Shown here in pieces: positions 32,006 through 57,964 of a stretch of 64,000 nt of DNA. Below the pieces are notes generated by a model. The model saw nothing but the letters and a program-made list of their open reading frames with translations, ran no database searches and was not told the origin of the DNA. The DNA lies in the NCBI GenBank assembly GCA_030605095.1, contig JAUWBJ010000002.1, positions 2,355 through 66,354 on the forward strand, given 5' to 3'. The position numbers were made by a program, and so were the translations under genes. The DNA comes from Candidatus Omnitrophota bacterium (GTDB lineage: Bacteria > Omnitrophota > Gorgyraeia > JABMRN01 > RBG-13-46-9). Position 1 is the first letter of the stretch, and each line of letters starts with the position of its first letter.

Positions 32006-32100
32006 TGGCGGAGGAGGAGGGATTTGAACCCTCGGTACCGCGTTAAGCGGTACAACAGTTTAGCAAACTGCCGCCCTAAACCGGACTAGGCGACTCCTCC
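32006..32100 (-). tRNA. tRNA-Ser(GCU), long variable arm, CCA encoded
   Basis: Cloverleaf GGAGGAG...anticodon loop UUGCUAA...GGUUCAAAUCC...CUCCUCCGCCA. Confidence 0.85.
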
Positions 32101-48843: not shown

Positions 48844-48931
<88 letters not shown>

Positions 48932-48940
48932 AAAATCACG

Positions 48941-49026
48941 CGGAAGGAGCAGGATTCGAACCTGCGGTACTCGTTAAAGTACAGACGCTTTCGAGGCGTC
49001 CGGTTTAAACCACTCACCCATCCTTC
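48941..49026 (-). tRNA. tRNA-Ser(CGA)
   Basis: Anticodon stem GACGC/GCGUC, loop CUCGAAA, long variable arm. Confidence 0.8.
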
Positions 49027-49045
49027 CACAATTTATAAAGAACGT

Positions 49046-49525
49046 TTAAGAAGATTTTAACTTCATTATCCTGCTATTCGCAGGATCGAGTTTACATATT
49101 CTATTTTTTTTATGTTCTAAAACCTTTGGAGCGTTTACTACTTCCTCGAAGCCTCCTCTTTTAAGAAAAGCAGGTTTGTGACTAATGCTGTATATGGGTT
49201 TTTCGGGATTTTGTCTTTTTGCCTCTTCAGTCAGAAATAAAAGCATCTTTACGCCAATGCCTTTTCCTCGGTGGTAATAATCAACGCCTAAAGACGCTAT
49301 TTCAAAATATTCCTTATGGTCCTTTATTCTCCCGAATGCGACTGTTTTACCACTATTTTTTGCAACAAAAAATTGTTTCCAGTTCACGTCGGCGCTATCC
49401 AGAATATATTTTTTCAGTTTTTCTTGAATATAGGGCCAGTCTTTTTCTTTCGCTCTTTCTATTTTTATCTCTTCCATATACAATTCATATTCCGCACTTT
49501 TTTCGCCGAGACCAAATCCATTCAA
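49046..49525 (-). CDS. GNAT-family N-acetyltransferase
   Basis: Acetyl-CoA motif RGKGIG. The first 16 listed residues are encoded by a family-1 repeat; the real start is probably M17 (MEEIKI...). Confidence 0.75.
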   Translation of the reverse strand: MNGFGLGEKSAEYELYMEEIKIERAKEKDWPYIQEKLKKYILDSADVNWKQFFVAKNSGKTVAFGRIKDHKEYFEIASLGVDYYHRGKGIGVKMLLFLTEEAKRQNPEKPIYSISHKPAFLKRGGFEEVVNAPKVLEHKKNRICKLDPANSRIMKLKSS

Positions 49526-49530
49526 GAATA

Positions 49531-49712
49531 GTATTGTCTACTCCCCCTTCCTATTAGGAAGGGACACAGGCCGCCGCAGGCGGCCGTCATAAGGGAAACC
49601 TTGGGTTTCCCTTTGAAATGATTTGGCGTCAGCCTCAGCCGAAGGCTGAGGTTTCTGCCGAAAAAAGAGAATCCCACACTTTTTTCAGCAGAAACCAAAT
49701 CAGTACAAGAGC
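49531..49712 (-). repeat. Structured repeat of about 180 nt (includes the family-1 hairpin), copy 1; candidate ncRNA/leader
   Basis: About 85% identical to 53700-53875 with compensatory stem changes. It lies between tRNA-Ser(UGA) and the GNAT gene. Confidence 0.5.
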
Positions 49713-49799
49713 GGAGAGGGTGGGATTCGAACCCACGTGACTCGTGAGAGTCAAACGGTTTTCAAGACCGCCCGGTTATAGCCACTTCCGTACCTCTCC
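49713..49799 (-). tRNA. tRNA-Ser(UGA)
   Basis: Anticodon loop CUUGAAA, long variable arm, GGUUCGAAUCC. Confidence 0.8.
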
Positions 49800-49804
49800 C
49801 TCCT

Positions 49805-50467
49805 TTAAGTAAGTAACCCACTAAAAATATTTGAATAAATATCTTTTGAATAAATAAATGTCTTTTTTGCAAAAGCTACAAAAGATATATCCTTGGAGAT
49901 AAAACTCAAAGCTAAAAACGCAATAGAGATATTTGCTACATATATAAGAAGAACGGAAAATAGATACCCTGTTCTCAAGATATCGGGCTGTCGCCTTTTC
50001 ATTACTTCTACAGTCATAATAAGATGGAAACTAATCGCAAATCCTATTAAGAAAATAAACTCATTAGAAAATTTCGACATATTATAAAATCTGGACAGAA
50101 TCCAGTATAATAAAAACAAGAGCATTGCGTGAATCGGCACGAAATAAGGGCTTAACCTGATAAACAAATTGGTTTTTGTCGCCGCAACAGTCCCGCCCTC
50201 ATGCGAGATCTGAAAAGATGTTACTTTGCCGCCGCAAAGCCATATTGCTAGTACATGAACTACCTCATGGCCCCACGCGTAGATATACATGGGTTTTAAA
50301 AAAATTATATGGAAAATCGGATAGACAAAAAATCCGCCTACAAGCCAAAGGAAATTAACATTGACGAAATCCAAATGTCGCAGGCCTTGAAGGAATGCCT
50401 TTGTCGACGATATGACAACGGGGATAAAAAAAATGGCGATAAGTACTTTGAAAATCTTGCCAAACAT
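49805..50467 (-). CDS. Membrane protein with HExxH motif (putative zinc metalloprotease)
   Basis: WGHEVVHVLA within a 6-TM protein. Confidence 0.4.
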   Translation of the reverse strand: MFGKIFKVLIAIFFIPVVISSTKAFLQGLRHLDFVNVNFLWLVGGFFVYPIFHIIFLKPMYIYAWGHEVVHVLAIWLCGGKVTSFQISHEGGTVAATKTNLFIRLSPYFVPIHAMLLFLLYWILSRFYNMSKFSNEFIFLIGFAISFHLIMTVEVMKRRQPDILRTGYLFSVLLIYVANISIAFLALSFISKDISFVAFAKKTFIYSKDIYSNIFSGLLT

Positions 50468-50470
50468 ATT

Positions 50471-51748
50471 TTATGCAGGTTTTATCACTTTAAGCCTGTC
50501 TAAATAAAAACGTAACGGTCTCGGAATGTTTACGCTGCCGTCCTTATTCTGGTGAATCTCTAAAATAGCGATTACAAGCCGCGCTAAAGCAACGCCTGAA
50601 CCATTTAGCGTATGAATATATTGTAGCTTCTTCGATTCTTTAGACTTAAATTTTATGTTTATCCTGCGAGCCTGAAAATCCGTAAAGTTGGAACAACTCG
50701 ATACCTCAAGCCATTTTTTTATGCCCGGAGCCCAGAGTTCTATATCGTAACACTTGCTTGCCGCAAAACTCAAGTCACCCGTAGAAAGCGCGACAACCCT
50801 GTAAGGCAATTCCAGCGCCCGAATTACCTCTTCGGCATCATTTAAGAGTTTTTCAAGTTCGTCATAAGAGGTTTCGGGTTTTACAAATTTGACCAGTTCA
50901 ACCTTATCGAACTGGTGAACCCTCGTAAGGCCTTTTGTGTCTTTTCCGTATGAACCGGCTTCCCGCCTGAAACATGCCGTATACGCCGTATAACAGATGG
51001 GCAGGCGCTCTTCTTCTAAAACTTCATTTGCGTGAATATTCGTAACAGGAACCTCTGCTGTCGGAACTAAAAAGAGGTCCTCGTCTTTTAATCTATACAT
51101 ATCCTCCTCTAATTTTGGAAGCTGTCCTGTTCCGGTCATGCTTCTTCGGTTTACCAAGAACGGAGGAAATACCTCTGTATAACCGTGCTTTTTTGTATGT
51201 AAATCCAGCATAAAATTGAATAGGGCCCGTTCGAGCCGCGCGCCTAATCCTTTATATAAGACAAAGCCGGTTCCTGCGATTTTTGCGGCTCTTCCAAAGT
51301 CGAAAATATCCAAAATCTCGCCGATTTCCATATGTGTTCTTGGCTCAAACTTAAATTTCGGCAATTTACCACATTCTTTAACCACTTTATTTGACTCCGG
51401 GCCAAGCCCTACAGGAATAGATTTATGGGGTATATTTGGGATATTATATATAAAATCCTTGAATTTTTGCTCTATTCCCTCCACTTTAGCTTCAATTTCG
51501 CCTATTTTTTGGGATACGCCCTTCATAGAGCTGATTAACTCCTTTGGATTCTTCTTTTCCCGCATCATCTTACCGATTTTATCGGAAACTTCGTTCTTCT
51601 GACGCTTTAAGCTTTCCACTTCCGTAAGAAGTTTGCGCCTTTCTTTGTCTATTTTCAAGAATTCGTCAATATCTACCTTTTCACCCTTATCCCTTGCGGC
51701 TTTCTTTACTACTTCCGGATTCTCCCGTATAAACTTTATATCAAGCAT
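50471..51748 (-). CDS. serS: Seryl-tRNA synthetase
   Basis: N-terminal coiled coil and class II motifs (…FRREAGS…; GSGVALARL). Confidence 0.9.
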
Positions 51749-51757
51749 AACTTCCCC

Positions 51758-53224
51758 TCACCCTTTTAACACGCAAAGTGGTCGCATACGAGCTACCCGC
51801 TTCGATATACCTGCTTCATGAACGACATGAACAACTTCAGTTACATTCTTATAAGCTTCCGGTGCCTCTTCGGCTAATGTGCCGCGGCCCGCAGCCATCA
51901 CTGATATTCCTTTCTCGGCAAGTTCCCCGGAAATAGACCTTCCCCGACACGCGGAGATAGCTGCTTTTCTTGACATAAGCCGGCCTGCACCGTGGCAGGT
52001 GCTAAAAAACGTTTCTTCGGCTTTCTGGGTTCCGACTAATAAAAACGAATGCCTTCCCATATCACCCGGTATTATAACGGGCTGGCCTATTTCTTTATAC
52101 TTTGACGGTAAATCAGGATGGCCTGGAGGGAAAGCGCGTGTCGCGCCTTTTCTGTGCACGCATAAAAGTTTTTCTTTTTCGTCAATGTTATATTTTTCAA
52201 ATTTTGCTATATTATGGGCGACATCGTAAATCAAGTCCATTCCTAAATCTTTAGAGCTCCTGTTAAAAAATTTCTCAAAAACCTCACGCACAAGATGCAT
52301 AAGGCACTGTCTATTATTCCAGGCATAGTTTGCCGCGCACTTCATCGCGCCAATGTAAGCTTGCCCTTCCGGCGACCTCACCGGAGCGCAGGCAAGTTGT
52401 CTATCAGGAACAGAAATTCCATATTTACTTAGCACGCCAATCATGCCCTTTGAATACTCATCGCATATCTGATGACCAAAACCGCGCGAACCGGAATGTA
52501 TCATTATTGTAATCTGGCCTTTTTCAATATTAAAAATTTCCGCACATTTTTCGTCATAGATTTCGTCTACAAGCTGAATTTCAATAAAATGATTTCCGCT
52601 TCCGAGCGTCCCTGATTGCTTTTTTCCTCTCTGATACGCTCTATCGGAAACCTTCGACGGATCTGCGCCTTGCATTTGTCCGTTTTCTTCGGTGCACTCC
52701 AGATCTTCTTTTGTACCAAATCCTTTACTGACAGCCCATTTTGCGCCGTTTGTTAATATTTTTCTCTCTTCATTAACGTCAACTCTGATTTTTCCTTCGG
52801 AGCCGAGACCGGCTGGGACGTGGTTGTAGAGGGCAGTGACTAAATCTTTAATTCGCGGCTTTATTTCTTTTTCAGTCAGGTTTGTTTTTACAAGCCGGAC
52901 GCCACAATTGATATCGTAACCCACGCCGCCTGGCGTAATTACGCCTCCATCTTCGATATCAGTTGCCACAACGCCGCCTATGGGTAGCCCATAACCCCAG
53001 TGAATGTCAGGCATTGCCAATGAATACTTTACAATTCCCGGAAAGTGCGCCGCATTCGCGACTTGTTGCGGCGCTCTGTCGCGTTCTATACTCTCAAGCA
53101 AATTCTTGTCAGCGTAAATTACGCCAGGCACTCGCATACCCGGCATATAGCTCTTAGGTATGCACCATCTGTAATCGTCTATTTTTTCTAACCGGCCCTG
53201 CCAGATTTGCATATTACACGTCAA
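51758..53224 (-). CDS. rtcB: RNA-splicing ligase RtcB
   Basis: GGVGYDINCG, HSGSRGFGHQ, CHGAGR motifs. Confidence 0.9.
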   Translation of the reverse strand: MTCNMQIWQGRLEKIDDYRWCIPKSYMPGMRVPGVIYADKNLLESIERDRAPQQVANAAHFPGIVKYSLAMPDIHWGYGLPIGGVVATDIEDGGVITPGGVGYDINCGVRLVKTNLTEKEIKPRIKDLVTALYNHVPAGLGSEGKIRVDVNEERKILTNGAKWAVSKGFGTKEDLECTEENGQMQGADPSKVSDRAYQRGKKQSGTLGSGNHFIEIQLVDEIYDEKCAEIFNIEKGQITIMIHSGSRGFGHQICDEYSKGMIGVLSKYGISVPDRQLACAPVRSPEGQAYIGAMKCAANYAWNNRQCLMHLVREVFEKFFNRSSKDLGMDLIYDVAHNIAKFEKYNIDEKEKLLCVHRKGATRAFPPGHPDLPSKYKEIGQPVIIPGDMGRHSFLLVGTQKAEETFFSTCHGAGRLMSRKAAISACRGRSISGELAEKGISVMAAGRGTLAEEAPEAYKNVTEVVHVVHEAGISKRVARMRPLCVLKG

Positions 53225-53630
53225 ATACTATATCTACGCTACACCCTTCGTCCGACTCTCTTATATTAAGGTCGTGGTATGTAGCCGCTTTTATCTCGGT
53301 TTTTAATCTGTTTCTGTTTTCTCCGATATGCCTGCCGTAGACTTTCACCATAAGTTGCTCTTCGCTTAAGAAACTGACCTCAAATTCAAAAAATATAATG
53401 CCTTTTGTGTAGAAATTATAGAGTAGCTCGTCCAGCCAGGAAACTAAAAGCTCCTCTTTCGAAGGAGCTTTTAAATTTACGTCTATGGATACGGAACTTT
53501 TTAAGCCTTCAAGGTCGGCTATGATATCGAACATTCCATAAGCTGCGTTAATAAAAAGTTCCTTTAAATCCTTGCCGTATACTCTAATTGCTATGTCCGC
53601 CGTGTGCGGAATCTGTTCATACCGCTTCAT
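53214..53630 (-). CDS. Archease (RtcB activator)
   Basis: EQIPHTADIAIRVYG N-terminal signature. Overlaps rtcB by 11 bp. Confidence 0.8.
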   Translation of the reverse strand: MKRYEQIPHTADIAIRVYGKDLKELFINAAYGMFDIIADLEGLKSSVSIDVNLKAPSKEELLVSWLDELLYNFYTKGIIFFEFEVSFLSEEQLMVKVYGRHIGENRNRLKTEIKAATYHDLNIRESDEGCSVDIVFDV

Positions 53631-53699
53631 ATTTTTCCTCTAATGGGAAAAAGATTGTTAAGAAAAAACCGTAGGTTTTGTCTTAACTCTAGATTGCGT

Positions 53700-53875
53700 T
53701 ATTCTACTCCCCTTCCTATTAGGAGGGGGTACAGCGAGCGAAGCGAGCGTCATAGGGGGGAACCTGGGTTCCCCTTTGAAATGATTTGGCGTCAGCCTCA
53801 GCCGAAGGCTGAGGTTCCTATTGAAAAAAGAGAATCCCGCACTTTTTTCGGCAGGAACCAAATCAGTATAAGAAG
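53700..53875 (-). repeat. Structured repeat of about 180 nt, copy 2 (immediately 3' of tRNA-Lys)
   Basis: Shares ctttgaaatgatttggcgtcagcctcagccgaaggctgaggtt and the family-1 hairpin with copy 1. Differs by paired substitutions in the stems. Confidence 0.5.
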
Positions 53876-54235
53876 TACCCCGCAGAGGACTCGAACCTCT
53901 CACAATCGCCTTAAACACTATTGTTACCCTACCATAAGATAGAGGGCCAATTCGGTTATATTGGCCTCTGCATATCGCTATGCAGGTCAGACTATACAAT
54001 CTTCGCGAAATATAAAATTTCACGAAGTCCTGATTATAGTCGTTGAACCTCCCCCGTTCTTGCACGCAAGGGCGGGGTTTGGCTGCGGATTGTCTGCATC
54101 GCTGTATTTTTACCTGATACGGTAACAGCGAATACGCCAGAGTTTCCCGCAATTTACAGGATTTTCATCTATTAGTTACCTAATAGCGCCCCTTATTAAA
54201 AAAGGGCGGTGCTCTACCAGATGAGCTAGCGGGGC
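53876..54235 (-). tRNA. tRNA-Lys(UUU) interrupted by a group I intron (exon 1 54235-54203, intron 54202-53916, exon 2 53915-53876)
   Basis: Exon 1 GCCCCGCUAGCUCAUCUGGUAGAGCACCGCCCU plus exon 2 UUUAAGGCGAUUGUGAGAGGUUCGAGUCCUCUGCGGGGUA fold into a cloverleaf with loop CUUUUAA. Confidence 0.65.
53916..54202 (-). ncRNA. Group I self-splicing intron (287 nt, no ORF)
   Basis: P-like AAUUGCGGGAAA, Q-like AAUCCGCAGCC, R-like GUUCAACGACUAUAA and S-like GAUUGUAUAGUCUG elements. P1 pairs exon CGCCCU with IGS GGGGCG (U.G at the 5' splice site). Terminal G precedes exon 2. Confidence 0.7.
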
Positions 54236-54264: not shown

Positions 54265-55125
54265 CTATTTTTTTATAGCGTAAGAAAAAATTGCTGTTCT
54301 TAAAATTTCTCTTTTCTCTATTTCTTCCTGCCATATACTATTTTTACGACAGGGGTTCATGCAAATTAATGGTGAAAAATTTATCTCTCGCATGAAAGCA
54401 ATAAGATTTTTTCTGCCACCGATTTCTATCGCCTTACTATGTATATCTACTCTTGCATTTATGCCAAATTCCTGTAACAGATCTGCTATCTCTCTTAATA
54501 TCTTATCTGACTTCTGATAACCCCTTACTCGTCTTTTATCCTCACATTTGTAATAAACATTGCCCTCGTCATCGAAAAATGCTTTCAAAAATGCTCGCTT
54601 TTCTTCCTTTGTAGCTTTTGTTTTCAAATAAGCTGATATTTCGTTTATTCTTTCTTTTATATATGCTGCAAACTCCACATTGTGAAAAGCCACGACAGTA
54701 ACTCCATTTTTCCGAACATGTATCTTTGGCTCAATTCCAAAAACTCGTTTAACCAACACTTTGAGATGCTCAATCTGATATTTTGAGCGGTTATAATATG
54801 TGCATCCGCCTTGGCGTACATGGCCATCAAACATAAAATGAGCTACTACATGGATAATTTCAGGATTCCAGCCCAATGGTTTATTTATGTTTCTACCTGG
54901 TAAACAAATACCCTTTCGGGGATTTGTTCTGTTTCTGAGTAGTAATTCAATTTTTCTCTTCAGAATCTCGTTTTTCTGATCTTGCGTTAATTCGACTCCC
55001 TCTATATAGCCGTATACCGTACTTTTAGGCAGTCTTGTCTTGGCCATTATAGAGTTCAAAGAAAAACCTTGTTCCCTAAGATTCCTACATAGTTTTTTAA
55101 TATATTTTCTACTCTTATACTTCAT
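54265..55125 (-). CDS. HTH-LAGLIDADG homing-endonuclease-like protein (free-standing, directly upstream of tRNA-Lys)
   Basis: Two LAGLIDADG-like motifs (HFMFDGHV and LKAFFDDEGNV) after an N-terminal HTH. Confidence 0.65.
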   Translation of the reverse strand: MKYKSRKYIKKLCRNLREQGFSLNSIMAKTRLPKSTVYGYIEGVELTQDQKNEILKRKIELLLRNRTNPRKGICLPGRNINKPLGWNPEIIHVVAHFMFDGHVRQGGCTYYNRSKYQIEHLKVLVKRVFGIEPKIHVRKNGVTVVAFHNVEFAAYIKERINEISAYLKTKATKEEKRAFLKAFFDDEGNVYYKCEDKRRVRGYQKSDKILREIADLLQEFGINARVDIHSKAIEIGGRKNLIAFMREINFSPLICMNPCRKNSIWQEEIEKREILRTAIFSYAIKK

Positions 55126-55169: not shown

Positions 55170-55754
55170 TTAAACTTCTTGAATCTCTTTCTCTTTATTA
55201 GCTAAATGGTTATCAATCTCTTTTGAGTATTTGTCAATGAGCTTCTGAGTTTGGTCTTTATATTTAAATTTTTCGTCTTCCGTAATTACTTTATCTTTTT
55301 GTAGCTTATCGATATCTTCATTGGCAACGCGCCTTGCCGTGCGCAAGGAAATTTTTCCTTCCTCCGATATTTTTTTCAAAACCTTGGCCAGTTCATCCCT
55401 TCGTTCTTTCGTGAGGGAAGGAATGGAAATTCGAATGACCTTTCCGTCGTTATTCGGAGTAATTCCGAGCCCTGAGGCAAGAATGGCTTTCTCAACGTCT
55501 CCGAGTATGGAACGATCCCAGGGCTGGATAACAATAAGACGCGGTTCCGGAGTCGAAATGCCGGCTAATTGTTTAAGAGACATTGAGGTATCATAACAAT
55601 CGACTTTTACCCCCTCTACAAGGGCTGAATGCGCCCTACCTGTCCGTATGGTAGAAAATTCTCTTTCGGTAGCTTCAACCGTTTTTTTCATTTTATGTTC
55701 TACGTCTCCCAATACCTCTTTTGCCGTCGCAGCCAAGAAATCACCCCCTATCAA
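55170..55754 (-). CDS. frr: Ribosome recycling factor
   Basis: ...[12 protein letters not shown]...[16 protein letters not shown]... The real start may be internal. Confidence 0.9.
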
Positions 55755-56488
55755 TAAACAAGCGTTCCTATCTTCTTCCCCATAACAACTTTTTTTATAT
55801 TCCCTTTTTTATTGATATTAAATACTATGATGGGCAGGTTATTGTCCATACATAAACTTATAGCCGTTGCGTCCATAATCTTTAAACCTTTTTTCAAAAC
55901 GTCTATATATCGCACTTTTTTGTATTTTCTCGCGTCCCTGGATTTCATCGGGTCTTTTGTATAAATACCGTCGACCTTTGTGGCTTTCAGGATAATATCC
56001 GCCCCGATCTCCGTCGCCCTTAAGGCAGCTGTTGTATCGGTCGTAAAATACGGATTACCCGTCCCGCAGACAAATATAACAACTCTTTTCTTCTCCAGGT
56101 GCCTGATAGCCCTTCTTCTTATGTAAGGCTCTGCCAGGGCCTCCATCTGTATAGCTGTCTGGACACGCGTAAAAACGCCTATTCTTTCTAAAGCGTCCTG
56201 AAGAGCCAAACCGTTGAGAACCGTGGCAAGCATTCCCATATAATCTGCGATAGCGCGGTCCATTCCCTTTTGCGTTGCCGCTTCCAGCCCCCGGAAAATA
56301 TTACCTCCGCCGATGACAACGGCAACTTCACAGCCGAGGTCCTTTACCTCTTTAATCTGCCCGGCAATCGAGAGCATCACGCGAGGGTCAACGCCGTATT
56401 CCGACTTACCCTGAAGCGCTTCGCCGCTTATTTTAAGAACTATGCGTTTATACTTTGCTTTCATCTTCGCCCAATTGATAGCGGACAA
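55751..56488 (-). CDS. pyrH: UMP kinase
   Basis: [14 protein letters not shown]...[11 protein letters not shown]. The start is probably the internal Met at 56464, which removes the overlap with tsf. Confidence 0.9.
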
Positions 56489-57041
56489 ATCTTCTTATAA
56501 CGATATTTTCGCCTATCTTTGCAATTAGCGCGTGAAGTAGTTCCTTAATTTTTATTTTTGGGTCCTTAACAAAGGGCTGGTCTAAAAGACAGGTTTCTTC
56601 GTAAAATTTCTCCAGCTTACCCGCAAGAATCTTATCAAGTGCCTTTTTCGGTTTATTTTTTATAGTGGCCATGAGTATTTCTTTCTCTTTCTCCAGCGTA
56701 CTTTCGAGGACCTCTTCTCTTTTTACATATTCCGGCTTTGTGGCGGCAATTTGCATGGATATATCTTTTACAAATCTTTTAAATTCTTCATTTCGCGCCA
56801 CAAAATCTGTTTCGCAATTAACCTCAACCAAAACGCCGATTTTGCCGTTCATATGAATGTAGCTTTCTACGCGCCCGTCTTTGGCAGCGCGACCCGATTT
56901 AAGGGATGCGAGCTTTATTCCTTTTTTTCTCAATATTTCAATCGCTTTTTCTATGTTCCCGGCTGCTTCCTTAAGGGCTTTTTTACAATCCATAATGCCG
57001 GCCTGAGTCTTCTCTCTGAGCTTCTTAATAGCATCTAACAT
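56448..57041 (-). CDS. tsf: Elongation factor Ts (short form)
   Basis: N-terminal UBA-like [10 protein letters not shown] and [12 protein letters not shown] motifs. Confidence 0.85.
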
Positions 57042-57091: not shown

Positions 57092-57964
57092 CTACTTACT
57101 GGTAGGCCTTTTTCGCCTTACAGGCTCATCGCCTTTTTCTTTTTCCGAGGCTTTCTCCAGGCGTATATCCCCCTCTATTAACTCTTCAGCTTCTTTTTCA
57201 TTTACCTTCTTCTCTGTCTCCTCAAAGGGTGCTTTTTTAGCTTTTTCCATATCTTTTTTACCCGCTAAAAACTGGTTTCTTCCTTCGAGCACGCTTCTGG
57301 AAACAAGCGACGCTATAAAACTTATGGATTTCATCGCATCGTCATTGCCGGGAATAACGTAATTTATTTTATCGGGATCGCAATCCGTATCCACTAACGC
57401 CACAACGGGGATGGAGAGCTTATTGGCTTCGTGTACGGCGATTTCTTCTCTTTTAGAATCAACGACAAATAATGCCCCCGGCAGCCGGTCCATCGATCTT
57501 ATACCTTGCAGGTTCTTCAGGAGATTTGTGATTTTTTTATCAATCGTGGCTCTTTCTTTTTTAGAGAGGCTTTCATAGGTGCCGTCTTCTTTCATTTTTT
57601 CGAAAGATTCCAGTTTATTCACGCTCTTTCTTATGGTAAGAAAATTCGTAAGGGTGCCGCCGAGCCATCTATGGTTTACATAAAACATATTGCATTTTTC
57701 TGCTTCTCCCTTAATAATAGACTGGCTTTGCTTTTTGGTCCCCACAAATAGAATATAACTGCCTGCCGTTGCCGCCTCATTCAAGAATCTACAGGCTTCC
57801 AGGAGAAATTTCGCGGTCTTTTCAAGGTCTATGATATATATACCTTCCTTCTCGCCAAATATAAATTTCTCCATCTTCGGATTCCACTTTTTCGTCTGAT
57901 GCCCGAAATGTACCCCTGCTTCCAACAATTGTTTGACTAAAGCCTGTTCCTTTTTTGTCGCCAT
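57092..57964 (-). CDS. rpsB: 30S ribosomal protein S2
   Basis: AGVHFGHQTKKWNPKM N-terminus with an acidic/basic C-terminal extension. Confidence 0.9.
   Translation of the reverse strand: MATKKEQALVKQLLEAGVHFGHQTKKWNPKMEKFIFGEKEGIYIIDLEKTAKFLLEACRFLNEAATAGSYILFVGTKKQSQSIIKGEAEKCNMFYVNHRWLGGTLTNFLTIRKSVNKLESFEKMKEDGTYESLSKKERATIDKKITNLLKNLQGIRSMDRLPGALFVVDSKREEIAVHEANKLSIPVVALVDTDCDPDKINYVIPGNDDAMKSISFIASLVSRSVLEGRNQFLAGKKDMEKAKKAPFEETEKKVNEKEAEELIEGDIRLEKASEKEKGDEPVRRKRPTSK

What the first reader, a model, noticed from the sequence alone, without database searches (positions are those of the whole stretch)
53876..54235. Group I intron inside tRNA-Lys(UUU), inserted between U33 and U34
The exons (33 nt and 40 nt) assemble into a standard cloverleaf: G1.U72 acceptor, A73 discriminator, anticodon loop C-U-UUU-A-A, T-loop UUCGAGU. 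The 287-nt intervening sequence has the canonical group I core elements in order: AAUUGCGGGAAA (P), AAUCCGCAGCC (Q), GUUCAACGACUAUAA (R) and GAUUGUAUAGUCUG (S, with the P7 GACUA/UAGUC pairing). A P1 helix pairs exon CGCCCU with intron GGGGCG, placing a U.G wobble at the splice site. The 3' terminal G lies directly before exon 2. As far as I recall, bacterial tRNA group I introns are reported mainly in tRNA-Leu(UAA), tRNA-fMet/Ile(CAU) and tRNA-Arg; a tRNA-Lys host would be unusual.
Basis: partly seen in the sequence, partly recalled or inferred. Interest (0 to 1): 0.7.

Follow-up and report, generated by a model that had tools for sequence, protein, structure and literature searches.

The report
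Group I intron splitting tRNA-Lys(UUU)
The window holds a lysine tRNA gene split in its anticodon loop by a self-splicing-type group I intron. Dozens of uncultured bacteria carry the same intron, and a homing-endonuclease gene tied to this tRNA often sits next to it.

Summary
Exon 1 is 54235-54203, a 287-nt group I intron is 54202-53916, and exon 2 is 53915-53876. Rfam RF00028 scores 101.7 bits (E 3e-25). Joining the exons in silico gives ARAGORN tRNA-Lys(UUU).

It is not a one-off. The same intron, between U33 and U34 of tRNA-Lys(UUU), occurs in 58 complete loci, 50 of them distinct. The named ones are mostly Omnitrophota and PVC-labelled MAGs, plus one Saccharibacteria MAG. Both the ribozyme fold and the split cloverleaf show strong compensatory covariation. 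tRNA position 30 co-varies with both its exon-2 partner and the intron guide sequence.

A tRNA-Lys host is no longer unprecedented. A 2026 survey lists tRNA-Lys(UUU) 34/35 introns in Actinomycetota. I found no description of this 33/34 lineage.

The unexpected part is the neighbouring gene. An I-DmoI-like LAGLIDADG gene with intact catalytic motifs ends 29 nt upstream of the tRNA. Its family sits beside tRNA-Lys(UUU) in three genomic contexts. In Parcubacteria the adjacent tRNA has no intron. This suggests, but does not prove, a free-standing homing endonuclease aimed at this tRNA gene.

The parts
54203..54235 (-). tRNA-Lys(UUU) exon 1 (tRNA positions 1-33: acceptor 5' strand, D arm, anticodon-stem 5' strand, C32, U33)
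   Evidence: Sequence. ARAGORN calls tRNA-Lys(ttt) after in-silico splicing. Acceptor and anticodon stems co-vary with exon 2 across 50 sequences.
53916..54202 (-). Group I intron, 287 nt, with no room for an ORF. Helices P1, P2, P3, P4, P5/5a/5b, P6/6a, P7, P8, P9, P9.1 and P9.2; terminal omega-G at 53916.
   Evidence: RF00028 at 101.7 bits, E 3e-25. The helix model has 95.6% of cells paired and 42 of 78 pairs with compensatory changes, with 0 of 500 shuffles as good.
54187..54192 (-). Internal guide sequence GGGGCG (intron 11-16), which pairs with exon C28-U33 to form P1. U33.G11 is the wobble pair at the 5' splice site.
   Evidence: Coordinates. The U.G pair is invariant in 50 of 50 sequences. 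The pair at tRNA position 30 switches CG to GC together with the exon (columns 31/58).
54143..54154 (-). P element AAUUGCGGGAAA (J3/4, P4 5' strand, J4/5)
   Evidence: P4 is 98% paired.
54081..54091 (-). Q element AAUCCGCAGCC (P4 3' strand and P6 5' strand)
54034..54048 (-). R element GUUCAACGACUAUAA (J6/7 and P7 5' strand, including G162 of the G-binding pair)
   Evidence: The six P7 pairs are invariant in 50 of 50 sequences.
53988..54001 (-). S element GAUUGUAUAGUCUG (J8/7 and P7 3' strand)
53927..53966 (-). P9.1 and P9.2, two extra 3' hairpins found only in the window's subclade (11 of 50 sequences). They lie beyond the end of the Rfam match.
   Evidence: (helices 13 and 14, 95-96% paired with compensatory changes).
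53876..53915 (-). tRNA-Lys(UUU) exon 2 (positions 34-73: anticodon UUU, A37, A38, anticodon-stem 3' strand, variable loop, T arm, acceptor 3' strand, A73)
54265..55125 (-). Free-standing LAGLIDADG gene (286 aa plus stop): an N-terminal helix-turn-helix domain followed by two LAGLIDADG domains. Its stop codon is 29 nt upstream of tRNA position 1. It is associated with the tRNA gene; a functional link to the intron is inferred.
   Evidence: Pfam PF14528, E 5e-14. AlphaFold model with pLDDT 89.7. Foldseek hits to I-DmoI and intein endonuclease domains. The motifs FDG and FFDDEG are invariant. Adjacency to tRNA-Lys(UUU) is seen in Omnitrophota, Saccharibacteria and Parcubacteria loci.

Best explanation
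The locus is a working tRNA-Lys(UUU) gene interrupted between U33 and U34 by an ORF-less group I ribozyme.

Shown here:
- The primary transcript can fold into a complete group I core.
- The 5' splice site is defined by P1. The intron guide sequence GGGGCG pairs with exon nucleotides 28-33 and places an invariant U33.G wobble at the cleavage site.
- The intron ends in G, directly before U34.
- Joining the exons restores a 7-nt anticodon loop CUUUUAA and a canonical cloverleaf.
- The element is conserved at the same site in at least 50 distinct sequences, with compensatory changes in both the ribozyme and the tRNA.

Inferred from the established group I mechanism:
- An external guanosine bound in P7 (the G162-C213 pair) attacks after U33.
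- The terminal G287 then occupies the same site.
- The 3'-OH of U33 attacks the 3' splice site, ligating U33 to U34 and releasing the intron.
- P1 and the anticodon stem use the same exon nucleotides, so the RNA must switch from P1 before splicing to the anticodon stem after it.

The intron appears to have been inherited mainly vertically at a fixed locus, frr-[LAGLIDADG gene]-tRNA-Lys-archease-RtcB-serS. The lineage's named members are Omnitrophota and PVC-labelled MAGs.

The adjacent LAGLIDADG protein is most likely a free-standing homing endonuclease whose DNA target lies in or next to tRNA-Lys(UUU) genes. By splitting the anticodon-loop DNA, the intron may protect the resident gene from cleavage. 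That would be a collaborative-homing or immunity arrangement. This last step is hypothesis.
For: Intron identity: RF00028 at 101.7 bits, full length.

tRNA identity: ARAGORN tRNA-Lys(ttt) on the spliced sequence. The same call was made for 57 of 58 spliced homologues.

Distribution:
- 7 genome loci, in Omnitrophota, 'Planctomycetia'-labelled and Saccharibacteria MAGs, each with RF00028 at 80-110 bits.
- 65 metagenome loci, of which about 50 are tRNA-Lys.
- Where the intron starts with C or G, the 5' junction after U33 is unambiguous.

Structure:
- Ribozyme helices are 95.6% paired, against 84% for shuffles and 34-43% for slid controls. 42 of 78 pairs show double changes.
- The cloverleaf across the intron is 99.4% paired, with 14 of 21 pairs compensatory.
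- tRNA position 30 co-varies with position 40 (CG 26, GC 23) and with the guide sequence (CG 26, GC 24).

Synteny and LAGLIDADG state: 20 loci have a full gene, 24 lack it cleanly, and 3 have remnants.

LAGLIDADG protein:
- Pfam hit.
- Invariant D100 and D185-D186-E187-G188.
- I-DmoI-like fold.
- dN/dS of 0.13-0.19.

Family context:
- In six Parcubacteria protein clusters (12 loci), the gene starts 1-16 nt after an intronless tRNA-Lys(UUU).
- In three LAGLIDADG-anchored Omnitrophota look-ups, the tRNA next to the gene always had the intron.
Against: Splicing was not observed; there are no RNA data.

Whether this is the genome's only tRNA-Lys(UUU) is unknown, since only 64 kb were seen.

The window copy has a C27/A43 mismatch.

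Against the endonuclease-intron link:
- The LAGLIDADG family also sits next to intronless tRNA-Lys genes, so it does not need the intron.
- About half of the intron-bearing loci lack the gene, so the intron does not need it.
- LAGLIDADG and Frr divergence are tightly correlated (r = 0.92 over 45 pairs). With strong purifying selection, this looks like long vertical co-inheritance rather than active mobility.
- If the intron is fixed in the clade, an endonuclease aimed at the insertion site would have few targets there.
- No relatives of the protein were found in viral contigs.
Confidence: 0.88

Rival explanations
1. This is a dead locus: a tRNA pseudogene carrying a decayed intron, with the real tRNA-Lys(UUU) encoded elsewhere.
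For: No expression data exist. There is a C27/A43 mismatch in the window copy. One relative, Saccharibacteria locus L016, has A instead of the terminal G.
Against: Every catalytic-core element is intact, and the model match is full length. In 50 distinct copies, helices in both the intron and the tRNA are kept by compensatory changes. The guide sequence tracks exon changes. That pattern is not expected without selection for splicing and for tRNA function. No other tRNA-Lys is in the 64-kb window.
Confidence: 0.03
2. The neighbouring LAGLIDADG protein is mainly a maturase. It helps the intron RNA fold, so splicing is protein-assisted rather than purely autocatalytic.
For: The gene ends 29 nt from the intron-bearing tRNA, on the same strand. 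It is under purifying selection and co-inherited with the locus. The bI3 LAGLIDADG maturase is among the structural matches. LAGLIDADG maturases such as I-AniI and bI3 are established, from general knowledge.
Against: 24 intron-bearing loci lack the gene cleanly and 3 have only remnants, yet they keep an intact intron. Parcubacteria relatives sit beside intronless tRNA-Lys genes. The catalytic acidic residues are invariant.
Confidence: 0.1
3. The LAGLIDADG protein is a domesticated DNA-binding factor, as WhiA is. It would have a host function linked to the tRNA-Lys locus and no relation to the intron. Their adjacency in this lineage would then be inherited synteny only.
For: The protein has an extra helix-turn-helix domain. 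WhiA appears among the structural matches. Divergence correlates with Frr at r = 0.92 and dN/dS is 0.13-0.19. No viral relatives were found.
Against: Both metal-binding acidic residues are invariant across clades that share about 35% identity, whereas WhiA has lost them (general knowledge). The gene is repeatedly lost, truncated or interrupted by a stop codon. It abuts the same tRNA gene on opposite sides in different phyla, as expected if linkage to a target site is what matters.
Confidence: 0.25

Closest known systems
Group I introns at 33/34 of cyanobacterial tRNA-fMet(CAU), some encoding I-Ssp6803I (Biniszkiewicz 1994; Bonocora & Shub 2001, cited in PMC3984707; PMC13011429)
   Same: Same insertion position (33/34) in a bacterial tRNA anticodon loop. 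Same splicing logic, with P1 built on the 5' strand of the anticodon stem. There is a precedent for an endonuclease that recognises the anticodon region of a tRNA gene.
   Different: The host tRNA differs. Those introns are classed IC3, with R element GUGUAGAGACU, whereas here R is GGUUCAACGACUAUAA. There the endonuclease is a PD-(D/E)XK enzyme encoded inside the intron. Here the intron is ORF-less and a LAGLIDADG gene lies outside it.
tRNA-Lys(UUU) group I introns of Actinomycetota (Table S5 of Nakagawa et al. 2026, PMC13011429)
   Same: Same host tRNA species and the same general kind of element.
   Different: Those are inserted at 34/35, not 33/34. They are classed IC3 or IB2 and their core sequences are unrelated. 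They occur in a different phylum. No associated endonuclease gene is reported.
tRNA-Leu(UAA) intron of cyanobacteria and plastids, and the Azoarcus tRNA-Ile intron (IC3)
   Same: Small ORF-less self-splicing introns in anticodon loops, inherited vertically over long periods.
   Different: Different site (34/35 or 36/37) and subgroup. P4 is UUCAGAG/CUGAG-like in tRNA-Leu introns (from memory), against UUGCGGG/CCGCAG here.
Collaborative (trans) homing: phage T4 mobE with the nrdB intron, and cyanophage S-PM2 F-CphI with the psbA intron (PMC2790892, PMC6083498, review PMC3984707)
   Same: [quoted passage not shown]
   Different: Those cases are in phages and in protein-coding genes, with HNH or EndoVII-type enzymes, and the cleavage sites were mapped experimentally. 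Here the setting is bacterial chromosomes and a tRNA gene, the enzyme is LAGLIDADG-type, and the target is unknown.
I-DmoI and related monomeric two-domain LAGLIDADG endonucleases
   Same: Same fold (Foldseek E about 1e-7, TM 0.65 on the target). Two LAGLIDADG helices, each ending in an acidic residue.
   Different: I-DmoI is encoded inside an archaeal rRNA intron. The protein here is free-standing, has about 16% identity to I-DmoI, and carries an extra N-terminal helix-turn-helix domain of about 65 residues.

Membership tests
Group I intron (Rfam RF00028) | Covariance-model score above the curated threshold over the full core | tested here: met
   101.7 bits against a gathering score of 50, model positions 1-253, E 3.2e-25.
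Group I intron (Rfam RF00028) | P1 helix with a U.G wobble at the 5' splice site | tested here: met
   U33.G11 in the window. The U.G pair is present in 50 of 50 aligned sequences, and the neighbouring pair changes in a compensatory way with the exon.
Group I intron (Rfam RF00028) | Terminal guanosine (omega-G) directly before the 3' exon | tested here: met
   G at 53916. All 58 complete loci have G before UUUAAG. The only exception seen is Saccharibacteria locus L016, which has A.
Group I intron (Rfam RF00028) | Conserved P3-P9 core with the P3/P7 pseudoknot, supported by covariation | tested here: met
   P2, P3, P5a, P6a, P8 and P9 all show double changes. P7 is invariant. Overall 95.6% of cells are paired and 0 of 500 shuffles are as good.
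Group I intron (Rfam RF00028) | Guanosine-dependent self-splicing | not testable with these tools
   Needs an in vitro transcript with GTP and Mg2+, or RNA from the organism.
IC3 subgroup (the usual class of bacterial tRNA introns) | IC3-type core sequence and architecture | tested here: inconclusive
   No subgroup models were available. The R element differs from every IC3 row I read in Table S5. It matches phage-borne introns instead. Global pairwise identity did not discriminate between subgroups.
tRNA-Lys(UUU) | Cloverleaf with anticodon UUU in a 7-nt loop, and A73 | tested here: met
   ARAGORN on the spliced sequence. The MFE fold is a cloverleaf. 57 of 58 homologues were called Lys(ttt).
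tRNA-Lys(UUU) | The exon halves evolve as one tRNA | tested here: met
   The acceptor, anticodon and T stems are 99.4% paired, with 14 of 21 pairs compensatory.
tRNA-Lys(UUU) | Expressed, spliced and aminoacylated; the only gene for this anticodon | not testable with these tools
   Only 64 kb of the genome are available, and there are no RNA data.
LAGLIDADG homing endonuclease | LAGLIDADG domain detected by profile | tested here: met
   PF14528, E 4.9e-14, residues 174-248.
LAGLIDADG homing endonuclease | Two-domain alpha-beta-beta-alpha-beta-beta-alpha fold of monomeric enzymes | tested here: met
   AlphaFold model with pLDDT 89.7. Top PDB matches are the TliVMA intein endonuclease domain, I-DmoI and I-Tsp061I.
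LAGLIDADG homing endonuclease | Acidic residue at the end of each LAGLIDADG helix | tested here: met
   D100 (FDG) and D185-D186-E187-G188 (FFDDEG) are invariant in 20 and in 54 homologues.
LAGLIDADG homing endonuclease | Site-specific DNA cleavage and a defined target | not testable with these tools
   Requires purified protein and substrate DNA.
Collaborative (trans) homing system | ORF-less intron with a free-standing endonuclease gene next to the interrupted gene | tested here: met
   Seen in the window, in 20 further loci with a full gene, and in 3 of 3 LAGLIDADG-anchored Omnitrophota loci.
Collaborative (trans) homing system | The endonuclease target coincides with the intron insertion site, and the intron confers immunity | not testable with these tools
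   Cleavage assays are needed.
Collaborative (trans) homing system | Signs of mobility: sporadic distribution and phylogenetic incongruence | tested here: inconclusive
   The gene is patchy (20 present, 24 absent, 3 remnants). The family occurs in three phylum-level contexts. Within the clade, however, it co-diverges with frr (r = 0.92).

The most novel reading that the evidence does not exclude
[quoted passage not shown] The endonuclease family spreads by cutting tRNA-Lys(UUU) genes and being copied in alongside them, upstream in Omnitrophota and downstream in Parcubacteria and Saccharibacteria. The intron persists because it splits the recognition site and shields an essential single-copy tRNA gene. 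[quoted passage not shown] It would also explain why an intron is retained in these genomes.
Probability: 0.3. Interest if true: 0.75.

Novelty: new member of a known kind. Interest (0 to 1): 0.55.

Why it matters
There are three reasons.

**Annotation.** Default tRNA finders miss this gene. ARAGORN's intron mode often misplaces the junction and misnames the tRNA. Genomes of this lineage will therefore appear to lack tRNA-Lys(UUU). Completeness and codon-usage inferences for Omnitrophota-like MAGs need an intron-aware search.

**Catalogue of tRNA introns.** The finding adds a large, deeply conserved lineage of tRNA group I introns outside the classic IC3 set. It has a new host and site combination, and its relatives sit in phage-like protein-coding genes.

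**The endonuclease association.** A LAGLIDADG gene family is consistently adjacent to tRNA-Lys(UUU) genes, with or without the intron. This gives a directly testable system for two questions: how free-standing endonucleases and ORF-less introns come to share a target, and whether introns can act as protection against such enzymes.

Tried and rejected
[quoted passage not shown] Those inserts are 22-49 nt, too short to be group I ribozymes. I did not count it as precedent.
- **Subgroup assignment.** Global pairwise alignment to published IA1, IA3, IB2 and IC3 tRNA introns gave 61-69% identity for all of them, so it was uninformative.
- **PDB sequence searches with the LAGLIDADG protein.** The single-sequence search found nothing. 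The profile search found only the helix-turn-helix domain. A structure prediction was needed instead.
- **Structure prediction from locus-derived sequences.** I redid it with database homologues.
- **LAGLIDADG relatives in viral contigs.** None were found.
- **Promoter and terminator scan around the tRNA.** Nothing exceeded chance. One 'terminator' hit is simply P9.1 of the intron.
- **The 245-nt spacer between the tRNA and archease.** There were no Rfam matches even at E <= 1, and it is conserved only in near-identical contigs.
- **The 164-aa ORF at 53658-54152.** It overlaps the intron and has no family hit, so I treated it as spurious.
- **Naming the source organism.** The exact protein look-up returned no name. 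Taxonomy is inferred from relatives only.
- **Chance hit.** Locus L019 (Aminicenantes) from the genome scan has no Rfam match.
Full report

Yes. The feature is on the minus strand.

Reading 54235 down to 53876 gives three segments:
- a 33-nt exon 1, GCCCCGCUAGCUCAUCUGGUAGAGCACCGCCCU;
- a 287-nt intervening sequence, UUUUUAAUAAGGGGCG...AACAAUAGUG;
- a 40-nt exon 2, UUUAAGGCGAUUGUGAGAGGUUCGAGUCCUCUGCGGGGUA.

A scan of the whole window against Rfam gives one Intron_gpI (RF00028) match, at 54212-53968 on the minus strand. It covers the whole model (1-253) and scores 101.7 bits against a gathering score of 50, E 3.2e-25.

ARAGORN in default mode finds five tRNAs in the window but not this one. On the exons joined in silico it returns tRNA-Lys(ttt). 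The cloverleaf has G1.U72, A73, the loop CUUUUAA and the T-loop UUCGAGU. The minimum-free-energy fold is the same cloverleaf.

One detail to add: C27 and A43 do not pair in the window copy.

**2. Anatomy of the intron**

From the sequence, the Rfam alignment and complementarity checks, the helices are:
- P1: exon C28-U33 pairs with intron G16-G11, with U33.G11 at the splice site. It extends through intron U1, U2 paired with A10, A9.
- P2: a 7-bp hairpin with a GUAA loop.
- P3: UCCUG/CAGGA.
- P4: UUGCGGG/UCCGCAG.
- P5, P5a and P5b.
- P6 and P6a.
- P7: GACUAU/AUAGUC, which crosses P3 as the usual pseudoknot.
- P8.
- P9: a 7-bp hairpin with a GCGA loop.
- P9.1 and P9.2: two further hairpins, followed by UAACAAUAGUG ending in the terminal G.

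There are no P7.1 or P7.2 insertions, and no room for an ORF. The Rfam match stops at P9. The last 52 nt (P9.1, P9.2 and the tail) are an addition specific to this lineage.

**3. Relatives**

*Genome scan.* I scanned one genome per species (GTDB representatives) for a tRNA D-arm, then CUU, then the P element. This returned 8 loci. Seven are the same arrangement, with RF00028 scores of 80-110 bits:
- three Candidatus Omnitrophota MAGs;
- three TPA MAGs labelled 'uncultured Planctomycetia';
- one Candidatus Saccharibacteria MAG.

The eighth locus is a chance hit.

*Metagenome scan.* A scan for the R...S segment returned 65 loci, and a viral scan returned one.

*Junctions.* Every locus with both flanks and tRNA-like exons has exon 1 ending ...NNNNNCU and exon 2 starting UUUAAG. 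The intron often begins with C or G, so the junction after U33 is unambiguous. In total there are 58 complete pre-tRNAs, 50 of them distinct, with at least eight different acceptor stems. After in-silico splicing, 57 of 58 are called tRNA-Lys(ttt).

*Related introns in other genes.* Nine metagenome or viral loci carry a related intron in protein-coding, phage-like genes. Three of them have an HNH ORF inside the intron. The more general P-Q-R pattern also hits phage introns. So this tRNA intron belongs to a lineage shared with phage introns, not to the IC3 set typical of bacterial tRNAs.

**4. Covariation**

I used a 50-sequence MAFFT alignment (A1).

*Ribozyme model* (78 pairs):
- 95.6% of cells pair, against 84% in column shuffles and 34-43% when partners are slid by 1-3 columns.
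- 42 pairs show changes on both sides.
- None of 500 shuffles reaches any of the observed measures.
- P2, P3, P5a, P6a, P8, P9, P9.1 and P9.2 carry the compensatory changes.
- P4, P5, P6 and P7 are nearly invariant.

*Cloverleaf formed across the intron*:
- 99.4% of cells pair, and 14 of 21 pairs are compensatory.

*The most telling position is tRNA 30.* It is C in 26 sequences and G in 24. Its anticodon-stem partner in exon 2 changes with it. So does its P1 partner in the intron guide sequence (columns 31/541 and 31/58). The intron therefore tracks its exon, and the two exons track each other. This is what selection for splicing into a working tRNA predicts.

The shuffle control does not remove shared ancestry. 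The slid-partner control, which does keep relatedness, is equally clear.

**5. Mechanism**

*Shown:* all sequence and structure requirements of a group I intron are present and under selection.

*Inferred from the established mechanism:*
- Exogenous G bound at the P7 G162-C213 pair attacks after U33.
- The terminal G287 replaces it in the binding site.
- U33 3'-OH attacks the 3' splice site, joining U33 to U34.

P1 and the anticodon stem compete for nucleotides 28-32, so a helix switch must accompany splicing.

*Not shown:* that splicing happens, whether it needs help, and whether this is the only tRNA-Lys(UUU) gene.

**6. Genomic context and organism**

The neighbours, all on the minus strand, are:

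| Gene | Coordinates |
|---|---|
| rpsB | 57092-57964 |
| tsf | 56448-57041 |
| pyrH | 55751-56488 |
| frr | 55170-55754 |
| LAGLIDADG ORF | 54265-55125 |
| split tRNA-Lys | 53876-54235 |
| archease | 53214-53630 |
| RtcB | 51758-53224 |
| serS | 50471-51748 |

The order frr-[LAGLIDADG gene]-tRNA-Lys(intron)-[archease-RtcB]-serS recurs in most related loci.

The source record is an NCBI contig of 68,870 nt, also seen in Logan run SRR14872663. The closest named relatives are Omnitrophota MAGs. I therefore take the window to come from that lineage or a close PVC relative. This is an inference.

**7. The LAGLIDADG gene**

*The protein.*
- It is 286 aa. An N-terminal helix-turn-helix domain resembles resolvase and transposase DNA-binding domains.
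- Two LAGLIDADG domains follow. Pfam detects the second (E 5e-14).
- An AlphaFold model built on 54 homologues has mean pLDDT 89.7.
- It matches monomeric two-domain enzymes best: the TliVMA intein endonuclease domain, I-DmoI and I-Tsp061I. For I-DmoI, TM is about 0.65 on the target and E about 1e-7. The bI3 maturase and WhiA rank lower.
- The acidic residues that end each LAGLIDADG helix (FDG; FFDDEG) are invariant in all intact homologues, although overall identity falls to about 35%.
- dN/dS is 0.13-0.19.

*Presence of the gene among the 57 related intron-bearing loci (the window excluded)*:

| State of the gene | Loci |
|---|---|
| Full-length, immediately upstream of the tRNA | 20 |
| Cut by the contig end | 4 |
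| Remnant only | 3 |
| Cleanly absent (frr stop 26-205 nt from the tRNA in all but one locus) | 24 |
| Other context, no gene (no frr upstream) | 3 |
| Upstream sequence too short to tell | 3 |

Two of the 20 full-length copies carry an in-frame stop codon.

*Context elsewhere.*
- In the Saccharibacteria locus, the homologue lies downstream of the intron-bearing tRNA.
- A database search found 233 homologues, including ones named from Wolfebacteria, Nealsonbacteria and Parcubacteria.
- In all six of those protein clusters that I looked up (12 loci), the gene starts 1-16 nt after an intronless tRNA-Lys(UUU), in the order dnaK-dnaJ-tRNA-Lys-LAGLIDADG.
- Three look-ups anchored on Omnitrophota-named homologues are unbiased with respect to the intron. 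In all three, the tRNA downstream of the gene contained the intron.

So the family is linked to the tRNA-Lys(UUU) gene itself, on either side of it and in three genomic contexts.

**8. What does the LAGLIDADG gene do?**

*For a free-standing homing endonuclease that cuts tRNA-Lys(UUU) DNA and is copied in with the repair tract:*
- intact catalytic motifs;
- tight linkage to one conserved gene on either side;
- patchy presence, with remnants and pseudogenes.

Free-standing endonucleases that target a neighbouring conserved gene are documented in phages. So are cases where an ORF-less intron occupies the enzyme's target site, known as collaborative or trans homing (PMC3984707, PMC2790892, PMC6083498). 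[quoted passage not shown] An intron at 33/34 would split such a site and protect the resident gene.

*Against this reading:*
- Within the clade, the gene's divergence follows that of frr (r = 0.92 over 45 non-independent pairs), and it is under purifying selection. That looks like long vertical co-inheritance.
- The intron seems fixed where I looked, which would leave few targets.
- Half of the intron-bearing loci do without the gene, and the Parcubacteria loci do without the intron.
- No viral relatives were found.

A neighbour-joining tree resolves three deep clades: CPR, the window's clade and a second syntenic clade. It does not show a direction of transfer.

I therefore rate the physical association as established. 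I put the endonuclease-intron partnership at roughly 30%.

**9. What is known**

Nakagawa et al. 2026 (PMC13011429) surveyed 4,934 complete genomes:
- They found 333 intron-bearing tRNAs in 18 phyla, at nearly every anticodon-loop position. 81% were classed IC.
- The part of their Table S5 that I could read lists tRNA-Lys(TTT) introns at 34/35 in four Actinomycetota genomes, classed IC3 or IB2.
- For the single Omnitrophota genome it lists only a tRNA-fMet intron.
- The stored table is truncated, so I cannot exclude a Lys 33/34 entry in other phyla.
- They report that most tRNA introns lack endonuclease genes, and they infer limited mobility. Neighbouring free-standing genes were not examined.

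Searches for Omnitrophica or Omnitrophota with group I introns, and for free-standing LAGLIDADG genes at bacterial tRNA genes, found nothing relevant.

**10. Verdict**

The finding is correct, and the element is almost certainly functional.

As an element it is a new member of a known kind. It is a bacterial tRNA group I intron with an undescribed host and site combination, in a poorly studied phylum, and it belongs to a non-IC3, phage-related lineage.

The more surprising result is the LAGLIDADG gene family tied to tRNA-Lys(UUU). That deserves an experiment.

Noticed in passing
window 51758-53630 (minus strand); also L013, L014, L017, L018 and many metagenome loci: An archease-RtcB RNA-ligase operon lies directly downstream of the split tRNA-Lys. 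This order is conserved across the lineage. Group I splicing needs no ligase. Anticodon nucleases such as PrrC are known to cut tRNA-Lys 5' of the wobble base (from memory), which is the same phosphodiester as the intron site. The adjacency may be plain synteny or may reflect tRNA repair.
   Followed up: partly
L032, L034, L051, L068 (RtcB homologue regions): In these relatives the RtcB match is split: residues about 1-107, then 106-488 roughly 1.5 kb later. An intein-sized insertion would explain this. The window's RtcB is uninterrupted, but it matches the 'intein-containing RtcB' NCBIfam model only partially.
   Followed up: no
L016:7600-8000 (minus strand), Candidatus Saccharibacteria MAG CAZAJM010000001.1: The homologous intron in this tRNA-Lys(UUU) has A instead of the terminal G directly before exon 2 (...AUAAAUA|UUUAAG). 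This could be an inactive copy, an assembly error, or an unusual 3' splice site.
   Followed up: partly
L071:469-1302 and L081:744-1577 (minus strand): The LAGLIDADG gene in these two related contigs has a single in-frame stop codon in an otherwise conserved reading frame. This points to recent inactivation or to recoding.
   Followed up: no
L021, L023, L029, L038, L046, L050, L075, L078, L085: Introns sharing the R...S core and the P9, P9.1, P9.2 tail of the tRNA-Lys intron sit in protein-coding, phage-like genes. L085 is an IMG/VR viral contig. L029, L046 and L085 carry an HNH-type ORF inside the intron.
   Followed up: partly
window 48844-51748 (minus strand): serS (50471-51748) is followed within 3 kb by three tRNA-Ser genes: UGA at 49711-49799, CGA at 48940-49027 and GGA at 48844-48931. 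A fourth, GCU, is at 32006-32100. A synthetase clustered with its tRNAs is unusual.
   Followed up: no
window 54265-55125 (minus strand) versus P0001: The public gene call for the LAGLIDADG protein is 264 aa, starting 22 codons downstream. The homologues conserve the upstream helix-turn-helix residues, so the 286-aa ATG start at 55125 is more likely correct.
   Followed up: partly
window 53631-53875: The 245-nt spacer between the tRNA and archease contains several GC-rich palindromes, for example GGGGAACCCAGGUUCCCC at 53757-53774 and CUCAGCCUUCGGCUGAG. There is no Rfam match even at E <= 1. Conservation is limited to near-identical contigs.
   Followed up: partly
extracted loci L012-L084: ARAGORN's intron mode finds the gene ends but frequently misplaces the intron and misnames the tRNA. 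For example, L012 is called Leu(gag) and L015 Gln(ttg), although both are Lys(UUU). Automated annotation of these genomes will be wrong at this locus.
   Followed up: yes
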